Source of the DNA: Escherichia coli
GTDB lineage: Bacteria > Pseudomonadota > Gammaproteobacteria > Enterobacterales > Enterobacteriaceae
Reading direction: 5' to 3' (one strand)
DNA length: 64,000 nucleotides
NCBI RefSeq assembly: GCF_003334315.1
Contig: NZ_QOWR01000013.1
Part shown: piece after piece, positions 46,157 to 53,215 of the stretch
Layout of the letters: each line of letters opens with the position of its first letter
Position numbering within the stretch: the first letter of the stretch is position 1
Notes under the pieces: generated by a model
The model's database searches: none
What the model saw: the letters and a program-made list of their open reading frames with translations, nothing else
Told to the model about the DNA's origin: nothing
Position numbers and translations under genes: made by a program

Positions 46157-46804
46157 TTACTCTTCAATTCGTAACCCATAGGTTTTGAATTTCTCCAGCA
46201 CTACGGCAATCTCTTCATCGCTCAGCACTGGCACCGGGTCCGTAATCGCCAGGGTCGTCAGGTAAAGTTGCGCCAGCACTTCAACTTCATGCGCCAGCCA
46301 TAACGCTTTTTCCAGATTCACCTCACAAGCGATAAGCCCATGATGTTGTAACAAAGTTGCCTTACGATTTTTGAGAGCCAGCGCAACATGTTCAGAAAGT
46401 TCGCGTGTTCCAAAGGTCGCATAAGGCGCGCAAGGAATAGAATTACCGCCAGCCGCCGCAATCATGTAGTGAATAGCGGGGATCGATCGGTTAAGAATGG
46501 AAACTGCCGTGCAATGAACGGCATGATTGTGAACAACCGCGTTGGCATCCGGTCTGCTTTGATAGGCTGCCATATGGAAACGCCATTCGCTTGAGGGGAG
46601 CTTTCCTTCCTCATGTTTACCGTTGCCATCAATAAAGACAATATGCGACTCCGTCAGTTTTTCATATGGAATGCCTGTAGGCGTAATCAGCATCCCATCC
46701 TGATAACGTACACTGACGTTCCCCGCTGTCCCCTGGTTCAGTCCCAGGCGGGTCATTTCCAGGCAAGTGTCAATAATCTGACGAGCAAGTTTATTTCGTT
46801 CCAT
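46157..46804 (-). CDS. fucA: L-fuculose-phosphate aldolase
   Basis: 215-aa ORF recognised as FucA. Confidence 0.96.
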   Translation of the reverse strand: MERNKLARQIIDTCLEMTRLGLNQGTAGNVSVRYQDGMLITPTGIPYEKLTESHIVFIDGNGKHEEGKLPSSEWRFHMAAYQSRPDANAVVHNHAVHCTAVSILNRSIPAIHYMIAAAGGNSIPCAPYATFGTRELSEHVALALKNRKATLLQHHGLIACEVNLEKALWLAHEVEVLAQLYLTTLAITDPVPVLSDEEIAVVLEKFKTYGLRIEE

Positions 46805-47350
46805 TAGCTACCTCTCTCTGATTCAAAACAGGGCAATAATGTTGTTCCTTTCACACTATTGAATTAGCCGTTTAATTACCCACCATCTTCTTCCTGATTA
46901 ACAAGAAAGAAATTCACAAGCTTATATTTTGTGACCTGGTTCAACTAATCACAGTAAATAACTGCAAGTTCTCTTTTTATAACCCCATTAAAAATGACCG
47001 CTCTTAAAAATATTTATCAAAACGGTCATTTTTCTATTCCTCCAAGCCCGGAATGACCGTTTTCGGCACAAACAATTAATACGGTCATCTGATTTGTGTT
47101 TTTTATGATTTATTTTCTGAAACGGGCATGAAATTTCGATTATTAAAGTGATGGTAGTCACATAAAGTCACCTTCTAGCTAATAAGTGTGACCGCCGTCA
47201 TATTACAGAGCGTTTTTTATTTGAAAATGAATCCATGAGTTCATTTCAGACAGGCAAATATTCACTGATATGAAGCCCGAACTCGCTGGTTTTGCACTTT
47301 TGAAAACATAACCGATTACGTGCTTAAGCTTCTGAACCTAAGAGGATGCT
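46805..47350. promoter_or_regulatory. fucAO / fucPIKUR divergent control region
   Basis: 546-bp AT-rich gap between divergent operons; repeated ATGACCG / CGGTCAT motifs and TGTGA...TCACA-like elements. Confidence 0.6.
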
Positions 47351-48667
47351 ATGGGAAACACATCAATACAAACGCAGAGTTACCGTGCGGTAGATAAAGA
47401 TGCAGGGCAAAGCAGAAGTTACATTATTCCATTCGCGCTGCTGTGCTCACTGTTTTTTCTTTGGGCGGTAGCCAATAACCTTAACGACATTTTATTACCT
47501 CAATTCCAGCAGGCTTTTACGCTGACAAATTTCCAGGCTGGCCTGATCCAATCGGCCTTTTACTTTGGTTATTTCATTATCCCAATCCCTGCTGGGATAT
47601 TGATGAAAAAACTCAGTTATAAAGCAGGGATTATTACCGGGTTATTTTTATATGCCTTGGGTGCTGCATTATTCTGGCCCGCCGCAGAAATAATGAACCA
47701 CACCTTATTTTTAGTTGGCCTATTTATTATTGCAGCCGGATTAGGTTGTCTGGAAACTGCCGCAAACCCTTTTGTTACGGTATTAGGGCCGGAAAGTAGT
47801 GGTCACTTCCGCTTAAATCTTGCGCAAACATTTAACTCGTTTGGCGCAATTATCGCGGTTGTCTTTGGGCAAAGTCTTATTTTGTCTAACGTGCCACATC
47901 AATCGCAAGACGTTCTCGATAAAATGTCTCCAGAGCAATTGAGTGCGTATAAACACAGCCTGGTATTATCGGTACAGACACCTTATATGATCATCGTGGC
48001 TATCGTGTTACTGGTCGCCCTGCTGATCATGCTGACGAAATTCCCGGCATTGCAGAGTGATAATCACAGTGACGCCAAACAAGGATCGTTCTCCGCATCG
48101 CTTTCTCGCCTGGCGCGTATTCGCCACTGGCGCTGGGCGGTATTAGCGCAATTCTGCTATGTCGGCGCACAAACGGCCTGCTGGAGCTATTTGATTCGCT
48201 ACGCTGTAGAAGAAATTCCAGGTATGACTGCAGGCTTTGCCGCTAACTATTTAACCGGAACCATGGTGTGCTTCTTTATTGGTCGTTTCACCGGTACCTG
48301 GCTCATCAGTCGCTTCGCACCACACAAAGTCCTGGCCGCCTACGCATTAATCGCTATGGCACTGTGCCTGATCTCAGCCTTCGCTGGCGGTCATGTGGGC
48401 TTAATAGCCCTGACTTTATGCAGCGCCTTTATGTCGATTCAGTACCCAACAATCTTCTCGCTGGGCATTAAGAATCTCGGCCAGGACACCAAATATGGTT
48501 CGTCCTTCATCGTTATGACCATTATTGGCGGCGGTATTGTCACTCCGGTCATGGGTTTTGTCAGTGACGCGGCGGGCAACATCCCCACTGCTGAACTGAT
48601 CCCCGCACTCTGCTTCGCGGTCATCTTTATCTTTGCCCGTTTCCGTTCTCAAACGGCAACTAACTGA
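47351..48667 (+). CDS. fucP: L-fucose:H+ symporter
   Basis: 438-aa ORF recognised as FucP. Confidence 0.96.
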   Translation: MGNTSIQTQSYRAVDKDAGQSRSYIIPFALLCSLFFLWAVANNLNDILLPQFQQAFTLTNFQAGLIQSAFYFGYFIIPIPAGILMKKLSYKAGIITGLFLYALGAALFWPAAEIMNHTLFLVGLFIIAAGLGCLETAANPFVTVLGPESSGHFRLNLAQTFNSFGAIIAVVFGQSLILSNVPHQSQDVLDKMSPEQLSAYKHSLVLSVQTPYMIIVAIVLLVALLIMLTKFPALQSDNHSDAKQGSFSASLSRLARIRHWRWAVLAQFCYVGAQTACWSYLIRYAVEEIPGMTAGFAANYLTGTMVCFFIGRFTGTWLISRFAPHKVLAAYALIAMALCLISAFAGGHVGLIALTLCSAFMSIQYPTIFSLGIKNLGQDTKYGSSFIVMTIIGGGIVTPVMGFVSDAAGNIPTAELIPALCFAVIFIFARFRSQTATN

Positions 48668-48699
48668 ACATATTTTCCGAATAAAGTGAGGAATCTGTA

Positions 48700-50475
48700 A
48701 TGAAAAAAATCAGCTTACCGAAAATTGGTATCCGCCCGGTTATTGACGGTCGTCGCATGGGTGTTCGTGAGTCGCTTGAAGAACAAACAATGAATATGGC
48801 GAAAGCTACGGCCGCACTGCTGACCGAGAAACTGCGCCATGCCTGCGGAGCTGCCGTCGAGTGTGTCATTTCCGATACCTGTATCGCGGGTATGGCTGAA
48901 GCCGCTGCTTGCGAAGAAAAATTCAGCAGTCAGAATGTAGGCCTCACCATTACGGTAACGCCTTGCTGGTGCTATGGCAGTGAAACCATCGACATGGATC
49001 CAACCCGCCCGAAAGCCATTTGGGGCTTTAACGGCACTGAACGTCCCGGCGCTGTTTACCTGGCAGCGGCTCTGGCAGCTCACAGCCAGAAAGGCATCCC
49101 GGCATTCTCCATTTACGGTCATGACGTTCAGGATGCCGATGACACATCGATTCCTGCCGATGTTGAAGAAAAACTGCTGCGCTTTGCCCGCGCCGGTTTG
49201 GCCGTCGCCAGCATGAAAGGTAAAAGCTATCTGTCGCTGGGCGGCGTTTCGATGGGTATCGCCGGTTCTATTGTTGATCACAACTTCTTTGAATCCTGGC
49301 TGGGAATGAAAGTCCAGGCGGTGGATATGACCGAACTGCGTCGCCGTATCGATCAGCAGATTTACGACGAAGCCGAACTGGAAATGGCGCTGGCCTGGGC
49401 TGATAAAAACTTCCGCTATGGCGAAGATGAAAATAACAAACAGTATCAACGTAATGCCGAGCAAAGCCGCGCAGTTCTGCGCGAAAGTTTACTGATGGCG
49501 ATGTGTATCCGCGACATGATGCAAGGCAACAGCAAACTGGCCGATATTGGTCGCGTGGAAGAATCACTTGGCTACAACGCCATCGCTGCGGGCTTCCAGG
49601 GGCAACGTCACTGGACCGATCAATATCCCAATGGTGACACCGCCGAAGCGATCCTCAACAGTTCATTTGACTGGAATGGCGTGCGCGAACCCTTTGTCGT
49701 GGCGACCGAAAACGACAGTCTTAACGGCGTGGCAATGCTAATGGGTCACCAGCTCACCGGCACCGCTCAGGTATTTGCCGATGTGCGTACCTACTGGTCA
49801 CCAGAAGCAATTGAGCGTGTAACGGGGCATAAACTGGATGGACTGGCAGAACACGGCATCATCCATTTGATCAACTCCGGTTCTGCTGCGCTGGACGGTT
49901 CCTGTAAACAACGCGACAGCGAAGGTAACCCGACGATGAAGCCACACTGGGAAATCTCTCAGCAAGAGGCTGACGCTTGCCTCGCCGCTACCGAATGGTG
50001 CCCGGCGATCCACGAATACTTCCGTGGCGGCGGTTACTCTTCCCGCTTCCTTACCGAAGGCGGCGTCCCGTTCACCATGACTCGTGTCAACATCATCAAA
50101 GGCCTGGGACCGGTACTGCAAATCGCGGAAGGCTGGAGCGTGGAATTGCCGAAGGATGTGCATGACATCCTCAACAAACGCACCAACTCAACCTGGCCAA
50201 CCACCTGGTTTGCACCGCGCCTCACCGGTAAAGGGCCGTTTACGGATGTGTACTCGGTAATGGCGAACTGGGGCGCTAACCATGGGGTTCTGACCATCGG
50301 CCACGTTGGCGCAGACTTTATCACTCTCGCCTCCATGCTGCGTATCCCGGTATGTATGCACAACGTTGAAGAGACCAAAGTGTATCGTCCTTCTGCCTGG
50401 GCTGCGCACGGCATGGATATTGAAGGCCAGGATTACCGCGCTTGCCAGAACTACGGTCCGTTGTACAAGCGTTAA
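48700..50475 (+). CDS. fucI: L-fucose isomerase
   Basis: 591-aa ORF recognised as FucI. Confidence 0.97.
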
Positions 50476-50583
50476 TACATTACTCCCTGATGTGATGCCC
50501 GGTCGCTCCGGCTACCGGGCCTGAACAAGCAAGAGTGGTTAGCCGGATAAGCAATGTTATCCGGCTATATTGCAGGAGCGATT

Positions 50584-52002
50584 ATGAAACAAGAAGTTAT
50601 CCTGGTACTCGACTGTGGCGCGACCAATGTCAGGGCCATCGCGGTTAATCGGCAGGGCAAAATTGTTGCCCGCGCCTCAACGCCTAATGCCAGCGATATC
50701 GCGATGGAAAACAACACCTGGCACCAGTGGTCTTTAGACGCCATTTTGCAACGCTTTGCTGATTGCTGTCGGCAAATCAATAGTGAACTGACTGAATGCC
50801 ACATCCGCGGTATCGCCGTCACCACCTTTGGTGTGGATGGAGCTCTGGTAGATAAGCAAGGCAATCTGCTCTATCCGATCATTAGCTGGAAATGTCCGCG
50901 AACAGCAGCGGTTATGGACAATATTAAACGGTTAATCTCCGCACAGCGGTTGCAGGCTATTTCTGGCGTCGGAGCCTTTAGTTTCAATACGTTATATAAG
51001 TTGGTGTGGTTGAAAGAAAATCATCCACAACTGCTGGAACGCGCGCACGCCTGGCTCTTCATTTCGTCGCTGATTAACCACCGTTTAACCGGCGAATTCA
51101 CTACTGATATCACGATGGCCGGAACCAGCCAGATGCTGGATATCCAGCAACGCGATTTCAGTCCGCAAATTTTACAAGCCACCGGTATTCCATGCCGACT
51201 CTTCCCTCGTCTGGTGGAAGCGGGTGAACAGATTGGTACGCTACAGAACAGCGCCGCAGCAATGCTCGGCTTACCCGTTGGCATACCGGTGATTTCCGCA
51301 GGTCACGATACCCAGTTCGCCCTTTTTGGCGCTGGTGCCGAACAAAATGAACCAGTGCTCTCCTCCGGTACATGGGAAATTTTAATGGTCCGTAGCGCCC
51401 AGATTGATACTTCGCTGTTAAGTCAGTACGCCGGTTCCACCTGCGAACTGGATAGCCAGGCAGGGTTGTATAACCCAGGTATGCAATGGCTGGCATCCGG
51501 CGTGCTGGAATGGGTGAGAAAACTGTTCTGGACGGCTGAAACACCCTGGCAAATGTTGATTGAAGAAGCTCGTCTGATCGCACCTGGCGCGGATGGCGTG
51601 AAAATGCAGTGTGATTTATTGTCGTGTCAGAACGCTGGCTGGCAAGGAGTGACGCTTAATACTACGCGGGGGCATTTCTATCGCGCGGCGCTGGAAGGGT
51701 TAACCGCGCAATTACAGCGCAATCTACAGATGCTGGAAAAAATCGGGCACTTTAAAGCCTCTGAATTATTGTTAGTCGGCGGAGGAAGTCGCAACACATT
51801 GTGGAATCAGATTAAAGCCAATATGCTTGATATTCCGGTAAAAGTTCTCGACGATGCCGAAACGACCGTCGCAGGAGCTGCGCTGTTCGGTTGGTATGGC
51901 GTAGGGGAATTTAACAGCCCGGAAGAAGCCCGTGCACAGATTCATTATCAGTACCGTTATTTCTACCCGCAAACTGAACCTGAATTTATAGAGGAAGTGT
52001 GA
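50584..52002 (+). CDS. fucK: L-fuculokinase
   Basis: Track ORF 50554..52002; start placed at [15 protein letters not shown] with CAGGAG Shine-Dalgarno; the upstream ATG at 50554 lacks an obvious RBS. Confidence 0.9.
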
Positions 52003-52003
52003 A

Positions 52004-52426
52004 ATGCTGAAAACAATTTCGCCGTTAATTTCTCCCGAACTATTGAAAGTGCTGGCAGAGATGGGACATGGAGATGAAATTATTTTTTCCGATGCTCACT
52101 TTCCCGCCCATTCGATGGGACCGCAGGTGATCCGCGCTGATGGCCTGTTGGTGAGCGACTTGCTCCAGGCGATTATCCCGTTATTTGAACTGGACAGTTA
52201 TGCACCGCCGCTGGTGATGATGGCAGCGGTAGAAGGTGATACTCTCGATCCTGAAGTAGAACGACGTTACCGTAATGCGCTTTCACTACAAGCCCCGTGT
52301 CCTGACATCATCCGCATCAATCGTTTTGCGTTTTATGAACGGGCGCAAAAAGCCTTTGCGATCGTTATCACAGGCGAACGAGCGAAGTACGGGAATATTC
52401 TTTTAAAAAAAGGGGTAACACCGTAA
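52004..52426 (+). CDS. fucU: L-fucose mutarotase
   Basis: 140-aa ORF recognised as FucU. Confidence 0.95.
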
Positions 52427-52483
52427 TCTCATACCGGTACGCCCGCATGACGCGGGCGGTTATCGAATGATGGGGTGAAAAAT

Positions 52484-53215
52484 ATGAAAGCGGCACGCCA
52501 GCAAGCGATAGTCGACCTGCTGCTGAACCATACCAGCCTGACCACGGAAGCTCTCTCTGAACAGCTAAAGGTCAGTAAAGAAACCATTCGTCGCGATCTC
52601 AATGAATTACAGACGCAGGGTAAAATTCTGCGCAATCATGGACGCGCTAAATATATCCACCGTCAAAATCAAGACAGTGGCGATCCCTTTCACATCCGGC
52701 TGAAAAGCCATTATGCGCATAAAGCAGATATCGCGCGCGAGGCGCTCGCGTGGATTGAAGAAGGGATGGTGATAGCCTTAGACGCCAGTTCAACTTGCTG
52801 GTATCTGGCACGCCAGTTGCCTGACATCAACATTCAGGTCTTCACCAATAGCCATCCGATTTGCCATGAACTCGGTAAACGCGAACGCATTCAACTGATC
52901 AGTTCCGGCGGCACACTTGAGCGCAAATATGGCTGTTACGTCAATCCCTCGCTGATTTCCCAACTTAAATCGCTGGAAATCGATCTGTTTATTTTTTCTT
53001 GTGAAGGGATCGATAGCAGCGGCGCACTGTGGGACTCCAATGCCATCAACGCTGATTACAAATCGATGCTATTAAAACGTGCCGCGCAATCGTTGTTATT
53101 GATTGATAAAAGTAAATTTAATCGTTCAGGGGAAGCCCGCATCGGGCATCTGGATGAGGTAACGCACATTATTTCTGATGAGCGCCAGGTTGCAACTTCT
53201 TTGGTAACAGCCTGA
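52484..53215 (+). CDS. fucR: DeoR-family activator of the fuc regulon
   Basis: Track ORF 52475..53215; start placed at MKAARQQAIVDLLL (243 aa). Confidence 0.92.
   Translation: MKAARQQAIVDLLLNHTSLTTEALSEQLKVSKETIRRDLNELQTQGKILRNHGRAKYIHRQNQDSGDPFHIRLKSHYAHKADIAREALAWIEEGMVIALDASSTCWYLARQLPDINIQVFTNSHPICHELGKRERIQLISSGGTLERKYGCYVNPSLISQLKSLEIDLFIFSCEGIDSSGALWDSNAINADYKSMLLKRAAQSLLLIDKSKFNRSGEARIGHLDEVTHIISDERQVATSLVTA

What the first reader, a model, noticed from the sequence alone, without database searches (positions are those of the whole stretch)
46990..47205. Five copies of an ATGACCG / CGGTCAT motif in the fuc divergent control region
The heptamer occurs in both orientations (AAATGACCGC, ACGGTCATTT, GAATGACCGT, ACGGTCATCT, GTGACCGCCGTCAT) within about 200 bp upstream of fucP. 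Such density is unlikely by chance in AT-rich DNA and fits the repeat-binding style of DeoR-family regulators such as FucR, encoded at the end of the same operon.
Basis: partly seen in the sequence, partly recalled or inferred. Interest (0 to 1): 0.35.

Follow-up and report, generated by a model that had tools for sequence, protein, structure and literature searches.

The report
Known FucR operator boxes, fuc control region

Summary
The window region is the 546-bp fucA–fucP intergenic region, identical to E. coli K-12 MG1655.

**Observation.** Four exact ATGACCG/CGGTCAT heptamers lie within 95 bp: 46994, 47023, 47053 and 47082. That is far more than chance: 200 random 64-kb sequences never had more than 2 in 100 bp.

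GTGACCGCCGTCAT (47188-47201) is not a heptamer copy. It is the published, mutationally validated CRP site OCrp0, with one mismatch to TGTGA-N6-TCACA. It scores 0.8 bits on a FucR matrix, against 13-23 bits for the real boxes.

**A missed box.** A fifth FucR-type box, CGGGCAT at 47123-29, was overlooked.

**Conservation.** An alignment of 43 other Enterobacterales loci shows five conserved CGGNCA boxes in variable DNA. Their spacing defines two rigid modules joined by a linker of 19-52 bp:
- OCrp2–box1–box2
- box3–box4–box5–OCrp1–OCrp0

**Literature.** A FucR DAP-seq motif (..AAACGG[T/G]CAT) is published. Mutating box 1 (OFucR3) lowers fucose-induced PfucAO activity more than 50-fold, and mutating box 3 (OFucR2) lowers it about 30%. 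A 2025 paper counts four known FucR sites.

**Verdict.** Observation mostly confirmed, interpretation supported, already known. The small possible additions are box 2, which appears unnamed in the literature, and the two-module architecture.

The parts
46157..46804 (-). fucA CDS (L-fuculose-phosphate aldolase), first gene of fucAO
   Evidence: ORF list and RefSeq annotation of identical sequence.
46837..46858 (-). CRP site OCrp3, in the PfucAO 5'UTR
   Evidence: The published sequence tagTGTGAaaggaacaACAtta (PMC11011485) is the reverse complement of these bases.
46867..46867 (-). PfucAO transcription start (C, 63 nt upstream of the fucA ATG)
   Evidence: 5'RACE result reported in PMC11011485, mapped onto the window. 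The intergenic region is identical to K-12.
46927..46948 (-). CRP site OCrp2 (core TGTGA-N6-TCAAC at 46930-45, centre 46937.5, about -70.5 from the PfucAO start)
   Evidence: Published sequence ttagtTGAaccaggTCACAaaa. TGTGA and TCA are invariant in 44 sequences.
46993..47007 (-). FucR box 1 = published OFucR3/OR3 (core ATGACCG 46994-47000)
   Evidence: Exact heptamer. Equals ttaagagCGGtCAtt, whose mutation lowers induced PfucAO more than 50-fold. Conserved as CGGNCAT. PWM score 17.2 bits.
47016..47030 (+). FucR box 2 (core CGGTCAT 47023-47029). Best motif match in the window; apparently not named in the papers read.
   Evidence: Exact heptamer. CGG.CA is invariant in 44 of 44 sequences. PWM score 22.8 bits, the top hit of 127,968 positions. 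Sits 29-30 bp from box 1 in every species.
47052..47066 (-). FucR box 3 = published OFucR2/OR2 (core ATGACCG 47053-47059)
   Evidence: Exact heptamer. Equals ccgaaaaCGGtCAtt, the DAP-seq site; its mutation lowers induced PfucAO by about 30%. Conserved. PWM score 16.8 bits.
47075..47089 (+). FucR box 4 (core CGGTCAT 47082-47088), probably the published 'putative' OR1
   Evidence: Exact heptamer. Conserved. PWM score 16.5 bits. 29 bp from box 3 in 42 of 44 sequences.
47094..47104 (.). Conserved block cTGTGGnTTT (ttTGTGTTTTT in E. coli) of unknown function
   Evidence: Column identity is 0.9-1.0 for most columns (0.4-0.7 at three). Always 12 bp from box 4 (44 of 44). It is neither a CGGNCA box nor a CRP site.
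47116..47130 (+).
   Evidence: CGGTCAT in 27 and CGGGCAT in 12 of 44 sequences. PWM score 13.2 bits. Fixed at 41-42 bp from box 4 and 28 bp from the OCrp1 centre.
47144..47165 (.). CRP site OCrp1 (aGTGA-N6-TCACA, core 47147-62)
   Evidence: One mismatch to the consensus. GTGA and TCACA are invariant. Named in PMC11011485 and PMC11894529.
47175..47178 (.). IS5 target CTAG of the propanediol-positive mutants (-374 to -371 from the fucA start)
   Evidence: PMC11894529, mapped onto the sequence.
47184..47205 (.).
   Evidence: The published sequence taaTaTGAcggcggTCACActt is its reverse complement, and mutating it abolishes the Crp-dependent fusion promoter. One mismatch to the CRP consensus and 0.8 bits on the FucR PWM. 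Only TGTGA and TCA are invariant; the 'CCG' part varies between species.
47223..47236 (+). Conserved -10-like GAAAAT and inferred fucPIKUR start (about 47236)
   Evidence: Inference only. The block TTTTTTATTTGAAAATG is conserved and lies 31 bp from the OCrp0 centre in 43 of 44 sequences. A start near 47236 puts OCrp0 at -41.5. The consensus promoter scan found nothing.
47351..48667 (+). fucP CDS, first gene of fucPIKUR
52484..53215 (+). fucR, the DeoR-family activator
   Evidence: RefSeq annotation mapped from L001. Pfam HTH_DeoR plus DeoRC.

Best explanation
The heptamers are the cores of binding boxes for FucR, the fuculose-1-phosphate-activated DeoR-family activator encoded by the last gene of fucPIKUR. 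The real motif is about AAACGGNCAT(T). The fourth core base is free, so the exact identity of four heptamers in K-12 is partly accidental.

There are five boxes, oriented - + - + +, in the untranscribed DNA between the two divergent start sites, and they are interleaved with CRP sites. Spacing across Enterobacterales shows two rigid modules joined by a linker of variable length:
- Module A serves PfucAO: OCrp2, then box 1 about 59 bp away, then box 2 a further 29-30 bp away.
- Module B serves PfucPIKUR: box 3, 29 bp to box 4, 41-42 bp to box 5, 28 bp to OCrp1, 39-40 bp to OCrp0, 31 bp to the -10 region.

With fucose present, FucR occupies the boxes and, together with cAMP-CRP at the neighbouring sites, activates both weak promoters.

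Shown by others: the FucR motif, and the fucose-specific effect of mutating boxes 1 and 3 on PfucAO.

Shown here: clustering far beyond chance, conservation of all five boxes, and the rigid spacing.

Inferred: FucR occupancy of boxes 2, 4 and 5, and the assignment of module B to PfucPIKUR.

For: - **Locus identity.** The sequence is the fuc locus and is identical to K-12.
- **Clustering.** Four exact heptamers in 95 bp against a maximum of 2 per 100 bp in 200 random sequences.
- **Published motif and mutagenesis.** FucR consensus and mutation of OFucR3 and OFucR2 (PMC11011485). Four known FucR sites, all on the fucA side of the IS5 target (PMC11894529).
- **Conservation.** In 44 sequences from Escherichia to Yersinia, Hafnia, Rahnella and Photorhabdus, mean column identity is 0.91 for the five 6-mers against 0.55 for spacer columns. 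CGG and CA are invariant or nearly so, and the fourth base is free.
- **Matrix scan.** A PWM built only from non-Escherichia sequences ranks boxes 2, 1, 3 and 4 among the six best of 127,968 positions in the window. Box 5 scores 13.2 bits.
- **Spacing.** Fixed within modules and 19-52 bp between them.
- **Regulator.** FucR is DeoR-family.
- **Published truncations.** The construct ending at -270 keeps boxes 1-3 and is fully inducible. The construct ending at -206 keeps only box 1 and retains about 70%. The construct ending at -166 has no box and is essentially uninducible.
- **IS5.** Insertion at 47175-78 separates all boxes and OCrp1 from PfucPIKUR and silences it.
Against: - No direct FucR footprint or EMSA was found for any box. 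The DAP-seq paper itself could not be read, so the motif is taken second-hand from PMC11011485.
- Boxes 2, 4 and 5 have no mutational test that I could find.
- The -206 truncation removes boxes 2 and 3 yet keeps about 70% induction. Box 2 is therefore dispensable for PfucAO in that reporter, and the conserved 29-bp pairing is not explained by PfucAO activity alone.
- The PWM core was defined by searching for CGGNCA, so only the flanks and the ranking are independent evidence.
- The fucP start site is inferred, not read from data.
Confidence: 0.9

Rival explanations
1. All five of the reader's copies, including GTGACCGCCGTCAT at 47188-47201, are FucR sites.
For: TGACCGC occurs both in box 1 and at 47189-95 (family D4). 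GGCGGTCAC resembles the box core.
Against: The sequence is the published CRP site OCrp0, and mutating its CRP half-sites abolishes Crp-dependent transcription. It has one mismatch to TGTGA-N6-TCACA and scores 0.8 bits on the FucR PWM. Across species only TGTGA and TCA are invariant, while the 'ACCG' part changes, for example TGTGATTCAGCTCAT in Yersinia. The 2025 paper places all four known FucR sites on the other side of the IS5 target.
Confidence: 0.03
2. Only the published sites matter. Boxes 2 and 5 are conserved for another reason, such as another protein or DNA-bending AT tracts, and are not bound by FucR.
For: The -206 truncation, which lacks box 2, keeps about 70% of PfucAO induction, the same loss as mutating box 3 alone. 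Box 5 in E. coli is CGGGCAT with the weakest score, 13.2 bits.
Against: Box 2 is the best match in 64 kb (22.8 bits) and also fits every position of the published degenerate consensus (ATCAAAACGGTCATT). Its CGG.CA is invariant in 44 of 44 sequences. G at the fourth core position is explicitly allowed by the DAP-seq consensus and is common at every box. The fixed 29-bp and 41-bp spacing ties both boxes to validated or likely sites.
Confidence: 0.07
3. The functional unit is an obligate long palindromic operator, TGNCCG-N23-CGGNCA, in pairs box1+box2 and box3+box4. A FucR dimer of dimers binds each pair, rather than five independent boxes.
For: Box1-box2 spacing is 29-30 bp and box3-box4 spacing is 29 bp in essentially all 44 sequences, whereas box2-box3 varies from 19 to 52 bp. 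In E. coli 46990-47033 is a 44-bp near-palindrome, 82% complementary (pair I1). DeoR-family proteins are oligomeric; this last point is from general knowledge and was not tested here.
Against: Box 1 alone supports about 70% of PfucAO induction (the -206 truncation). Full PfucAO activity survives loss of box 4, the partner of box 3 (the -270 truncation). The DAP-seq motif is a single asymmetric 15-mer. Box 5 has no canonical partner.
Confidence: 0.3
4. The inverted heptamers form an RNA or DNA hairpin, or are remnants of a repetitive or mobile element.
For: Several inverted-repeat pairs are present.
Against: The boxes lie between the divergent start sites (46867 leftwards, about 47236 rightwards), so they are not transcribed from either promoter. 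There was no Rfam match at E<=1. The spacers between arms are not conserved and the arms never covary, because they are invariant. The positions are syntenic in 43 species, and no similar cluster occurs elsewhere in the window.
Confidence: 0.01

Closest known systems
FucR operators OFucR2/OFucR3 (OR0-OR3) of the E. coli K-12 fuc regulon (Baumgart et al. 2021 DAP-seq motif; Zhang et al. 2024, PMC11011485; Zhang et al. 2025, PMC11894529)
   Same: The DNA is the same. Box 1 is OFucR3 (46993-47007) and box 3 is OFucR2 (47052-47066). The motif core CGG[T/G]CA[T/A] is the same, and so is the regulator, its inducer fuculose-1-phosphate and its partnership with CRP.
   Different: Nothing differs in kind. 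The papers count two validated and two 'putative' sites, four in all. Conservation analysis here shows five boxes. Box 2 lies between OR3 and OR2, so the monotonic OR0-OR3 numbering seems to leave it out; this is my inference, because the figures are not held. The two-module spacing pattern is not described in the text I could read.
CRP sites OCrp0 and OCrp1 of PfucPIK (Podolny, Lin and Hochschild 1999; PMC11894529)
   Different: It belongs to a different regulator family from the other four copies. The resemblance to the heptamer (TGACCG) lies in the non-conserved spacer of the CRP site.
Operator arrays of other DeoR-family sugar regulators (GlpR, AgaR, DeoR, UlaR). This comparison rests on general knowledge and was not tested here.
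   Same: Multiple short repeated boxes spread over 100 bp or more of a control region for a sugar-phosphate-sensing DeoR-type protein, usually together with CRP.
   Different: Those proteins are repressors released by the sugar phosphate. FucR is an activator that needs its effector. The box sequence is different, and the boxes lie upstream of the promoters rather than over them.

Membership tests
FucR operator of the E. coli fuc regulon | Matches the published FucR DAP-seq consensus G(A)C(T)C(G)A(C)A(G)A(TC)A(T)CGGT(G)CAT(A)T(CG) | tested here: met
All five boxes carry CGG[T/G]CAT with an A-rich 5' flank. Box 2, ATCAAAACGGTCATT, fits every position. The consensus is as quoted in PMC11011485.
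FucR operator of the E. coli fuc regulon | Lies in the control region of FucR-dependent operons, with a DeoR-family fucR gene in the locus | tested here: met
   The boxes lie in the fucA-fucP intergenic region, which is identical to K-12. FucR has HTH_DeoR and DeoRC domains.
FucR operator of the E. coli fuc regulon | Conserved at orthologous positions in relatives that carry the regulon | tested here: met
   Five boxes are conserved in 43 other Enterobacterales loci, with box identity 0.91 against 0.55 for spacers and fixed spacing.
FucR operator of the E. coli fuc regulon | Mutation gives a fucose- and FucR-specific loss of promoter activation | not testable with these tools
   In the literature this is met for box 1 (more than 50-fold) and box 3 (about 30%) at PfucAO. 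I found no data for boxes 2, 4 and 5 or for PfucPIK.
FucR operator of the E. coli fuc regulon | Direct binding by purified FucR (footprint, EMSA or DAP/ChIP peak) | not testable with these tools
   A DAP-seq peak or site is reported for OFucR2 only, and second-hand. The original paper is not held. There is no solved structure of a close homologue.
   TGTGACCGCCGTCATA has one mismatch. TGTGA and TCA are invariant in 44 sequences, and the spacer is variable.
   In the literature, mutating OCrp0 (taaTaTGAcggcggTCACActt) abolishes Crp-dependent transcription.
Structured RNA or repetitive element | Match to a known RNA family, or further copies of the array elsewhere | tested here: not met
   There is no Rfam hit at E<=1, and no second cluster in the 64-kb window.

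The most novel reading that the evidence does not exclude
The fuc divergent control region holds five FucR boxes, not four. They sit in two rigid CRP-FucR modules, OCrp2-box1-box2 and box3-box4-box5-OCrp1-OCrp0, joined by a linker whose length drifts from 19 to 52 bp between genera. Two elements are undescribed: box 2, which is the strongest and fully invariant box, and a conserved cTGTGGnTTT block locked 12 bp from box 4. This would imply that each promoter is driven by its own fixed-geometry FucR-CRP nucleoprotein complex, with 29-bp inverted box pairs bound cooperatively, rather than by isolated sites.
Probability: 0.45. Interest if true: 0.3.

Novelty: already known. Interest (0 to 1): 0.15.

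Why it matters
It matters little beyond confirmation. The FucR motif and two of these boxes are already published and mutationally validated in E. coli K-12.

The work here has three modest uses:
The fifth copy is a CRP site, and a true fifth box lies at 47123-29.
- It shows by phylogenetic footprinting that all five boxes, including an apparently unnamed one, are conserved from Escherichia to Yersinia and Photorhabdus.
- It gives a spacing map that predicts which boxes serve which promoter. That map could guide the experiments still missing on PfucPIKUR, where the FucR sites are only 'putative'.

Tried and rejected
- **Papers not held.** I tried to read the primary DAP-seq paper (Baumgart 2021) and Podolny 1999. 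Neither is held, so the FucR consensus and the fucP start are second-hand or inferred.
- **Supplements.** The supplements of PMC11894529 give no positions for OR0 and OR1. Their identification with boxes 5 and 4 is inference from the numbering order.
- **Other literature searches.** Searches for FucR ChIP-exo, SELEX or DeoR operator work added nothing.
- **Structures.** A PDB sequence search with FucR found no homologue at E<=1e-5, so there is no structural handle on half-site geometry.
- **Promoter and terminator scan.** Nothing was found in 46780-47370. That fits activator-dependent promoters but does not help place start sites.
- **RNA families.** Rfam gave no match.
- **Obligate palindromic-pair operator.** I considered this model for boxes 1+2. 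I downgraded it because the published -206 truncation, which keeps only box 1, retains about 70% induction.
- **TGTGG block as half-site.** I considered the conserved block as a degenerate partner half-site for box 5 or as a CRP half-site. It matches neither motif, and it is locked to box 4 rather than to box 5.
- **PWM hits elsewhere.** Isolated hits at 12242, 12453, 14032 and 59673 number roughly what chance predicts for a motif of about 17 bits. By offset to K-12 coordinates, the three I placed (12242, 12453, 14032) fall inside coding sequence, in ygcU and yqcE. I treated them as chance.
- **File access.** Loci from the search for related loci were not visible to run_python. I worked from the alignment file instead.

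Full report
**What the region is.** Window 46157-53215 carries fucO and fucA on the minus strand, and fucP, fucI, fucK, fucU and fucR on the plus strand (ORFs; RefSeq annotation of an identical E. coli record). The 546-bp fucA-fucP intergenic region (46805-47350) is base-for-base identical to E. coli K-12 MG1655. Published K-12 coordinates therefore map directly: window coordinate equals K-12 coordinate minus 2,886,884. The ORF at 52475-53215 (RefSeq fucR 52484-53215) has HTH_DeoR (E=1.4e-21) and DeoRC (E=2.6e-45) domains.

**Checking the observation.** Exact ATGACCG/CGGTCAT occurs 16 times in the window against 8.5 expected. Four copies lie at 46994-47000 (ATGACCG), 47023-29 (CGGTCAT), 47053-59 (ATGACCG) and 47082-88 (CGGTCAT). 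No more than two copies fell in any 100 bp of 200 Markov-1 random 64-kb sequences. A Poisson estimate from the other 12 copies gives about 4e-9 per 95-bp stretch. The region is AT-rich, 35.7% GC against 50.7% for the window. A one-mismatch copy at 47123-29 (CGGGCAT) was overlooked.

**What the literature already says.**
- Zhang et al. 2024 (PMC11011485) quote a FucR DAP-seq consensus from Baumgart et al. 2021: G(A)C(T)C(G)A(C)A(G)A(TC)A(T)CGGT(G)CAT(A)T(CG).
- They name two operators. OFucR2, ccgaaaaCGGtCAtt, is the reverse complement of 47052-66. OFucR3, ttaagagCGGtCAtt, is the reverse complement of 46993-47007.
- Scrambling OFucR3 lowers fucose-induced PfucAO activity more than 50-fold. Scrambling OFucR2 lowers it about 30%. 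Neither mutation matters without fucose.
- Their 5' truncations agree. The construct ending at -270 (window up to 47074, keeping boxes 1-3) is fully inducible. The construct ending at -206 (up to 47010, box 1 only) keeps about 70%. The construct ending at -166 (no box) loses most of its induced activity.
- Zhang et al. [quoted passage not shown] They state that 'all four known binding sites' lie on the fucA side of the IS5 target CTAG (-374 to -371, window 47175-78).
- The same paper gives OCrp0 as taaTaTGAcggcggTCACActt, the reverse complement of 47184-47205, and shows that mutating it abolishes Crp-dependent transcription.

**Independent evidence from related genomes.** One scan of species-representative genomes with FucP returned 43 usable Enterobacterales loci with divergent fucA. 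They span Escherichia, Salmonella, Citrobacter, Klebsiella, Raoultella, Kluyvera, Enterobacter, Kosakonia, Yokenella, Mangrovibacter, Buttiauxella, Hafnia, Yersinia, Rahnella, Photorhabdus and others. Aligning the 770 bp upstream of fucP shows a classic phylogenetic footprint.

- **Conserved features.** Variable DNA is punctuated by five CGGNCA boxes and three CRP sites.
- **Box 2.** CGG.CA is invariant in 44 of 44 sequences.
- **Boxes 3 and 4.** They are invariant or nearly so.
- **Boxes 1 and 5.** They are degenerate only in a few distant genera, mainly Mangrovibacter, Kosakonia, Photorhabdus and Rahnella.
- **Column identity.** Mean identity is 0.91 for the five 6-mers against 0.55 for spacer columns.
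- **The motif.** The fourth core base is free (T, G or A), so the motif is AAACGGNCAT(T). Some Escherichia already carry ATGCCCG at box 3.

A 17-nt matrix built only from non-Escherichia sequences was scanned over the window.

- **Ranking.** Box 2 ranks first of 127,968 positions (22.8 bits). Boxes 1, 3 and 4 score 16.5-17.2 bits, all within the top six. Box 5 scores 13.2 bits.
- **The fifth copy.** The best placement over it scores 0.8 bits, while it matches TGTGA-N6-TCACA with one mismatch. In other species its 'ACCG' part changes while TGTGA and TCA stay.

**Architecture.** The boxes are oriented - + - + +. Distances between the variable core positions and CRP centres across the 44 sequences (the OCrp2 anchor column is 1.5 bp off the true site centre, corrected) are:

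| Interval | Distance (bp) |
|---|---|
| OCrp2 to box 1 | about 59 (57-58 from the anchor column used) |
| box 1 to box 2 | 29-30 |
| box 2 to box 3 | 19-52 (variable) |
| box 3 to box 4 | 29 in 42 of 44 |
| box 4 to box 5 | 41-42 |
| box 5 to OCrp1 | 28 in 44 of 44 |
| OCrp1 to OCrp0 | 39-40 |
| OCrp0 to the conserved GAAAAT region | 31 |

The region is thus two rigid modules joined by a linker of drifting length. This fits the published finding that box 3 contributes little to PfucAO. It also fits the fact that IS5 at 47175-78, which cuts OCrp1 and every box away from PfucPIKUR, silences that operon.

**How it most likely works.** FucR charged with fuculose-1-phosphate binds the boxes. The inducer identity is from PMC11894529 and established knowledge. 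Together with cAMP-CRP at the adjacent sites, FucR activates two intrinsically weak promoters; no consensus promoter was found.

For PfucAO the start is at 46867 by published 5'RACE. OCrp2 then sits near -70.5 and box 1 near -130. For PfucPIKUR I infer a start near 47236. That places OCrp0 at -41.5, OCrp1 at -81.5 and box 5 near -110. Occupancy of boxes 2, 4 and 5 and the module B assignment are inferred. Zhang et al. suggest that FucR mainly helps CRP bind OCrp2.

**Rival readings.**
- A strict palindromic-pair operator is suggested by the conserved 29-bp inverted spacing and by the 44-bp near-palindrome at 46990-47033. It is weakened by the -206 truncation result.
- An RNA or DNA hairpin, or a repeat element, is excluded. 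The boxes lie between the divergent start sites, Rfam finds nothing, the spacers are not conserved, and the positions are syntenic.

**Comparison and novelty.** This is the known FucR operator array. Membership features that could be tested here are all met: motif match, location, DeoR-type regulator in the locus, and orthologous conservation. Direct binding and mutational effects rest on the cited papers, and only for boxes 1 and 3.

Three things may be new. First, there are five boxes rather than four, and box 2, which lies between OR3 and OR2, is apparently unnamed. That is inferred from the numbering order, because the figures are not held and the supplements say nothing. Second, the two-module spacing pattern. 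Third, a conserved cTGTGGnTTT block 12 bp from box 4. These are refinements, not a new kind of system.

**Verdict.** Interest is low.

Noticed in passing
window 47094-47104 (also AATTAA at 47074-79): A strongly conserved block, cTGTGGnTTT (ttTGTGTTTTT in E. coli), lies between FucR boxes 4 and 5. It is always exactly 12 bp from box 4 (44 of 44 sequences) and 29-30 bp from box 5. It is neither a CGGNCA box nor a CRP site, and I found no published name for it. Its GTTTTTTAT part recurs at 47212-20 in the PfucPIK core region (family D2).
   Followed up: partly
window 47341-47349; L049 (NZ_CP110117.1) 750-1519: One natural E. coli isolate (hit H1; L049), and by the hit table apparently three more records (H2-H4; sewage and human sources), carry an IS1 inserted in the fucP Shine-Dalgarno, with a 9-bp duplication AGAGGATGC just before the ATG. 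In H1, the one record examined, this leaves the FucR/CRP array intact but separates it from fucP.
   Followed up: partly
window 12242-12258, 12453-12469, 14032-14048: Three good matches to the FucR matrix (17.6, 15.4 and 20.4 bits) fall within 1.8 kb. By offset to K-12 coordinates they lie inside the coding sequences of ygcU and yqcE, which are putative sugar-related genes. They are isolated and their number is roughly as chance predicts. Conservation was not examined.
   Followed up: partly
window 51738-51754: A 15.4-bit FucR-matrix match (AAAAATCGGGCACTTTA) lies in the 3' end of fucK, about 265 bp upstream of fucU and about 745 bp upstream of fucR. It could relate to internal or autoregulatory expression of fucUR, or it could be chance. 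The fetched loci do not reach this far, so conservation was not checked.
   Followed up: no
window 48388, 48546, 48618, 49116, 49327: Five further exact heptamers lie inside fucP and fucI coding sequence, so 9 of the window's 16 copies are in the fuc locus. They lack the A-rich flank and score low on the matrix. This is probably a coincidence of codon context.
   Followed up: partly
window 46895-46900 versus 46914-46919: PMC11011485 gives the PfucAO -35 element as 'TTGtgA (-96 to -91 from the fucA start)'. The K-12 sequence at those coordinates reads TAATCA on the fucA strand. TTGTGA lies at -115 to -110. The stated -10 (aATtAa, -73 to -68) and the start site (-63) do match. The published -35 assignment or its coordinates therefore seem inconsistent.
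   Followed up: partly
L045, L046, L025, L038: Tiny low-coverage contigs labelled Jiangella anatolica (384 bp) and Chryseobacterium mucoviscidosis (279 bp) are 100% identical to E. coli fucP and are probably contamination. An assembly labelled Martelella alba, an alphaproteobacterial name, carries an Enterobacterales-type fuc locus with 86% FucP identity and the full box array. A 'Serratia marcescens' assembly has a Citrobacter koseri-like fuc region. Both labels look doubtful.
   Followed up: no
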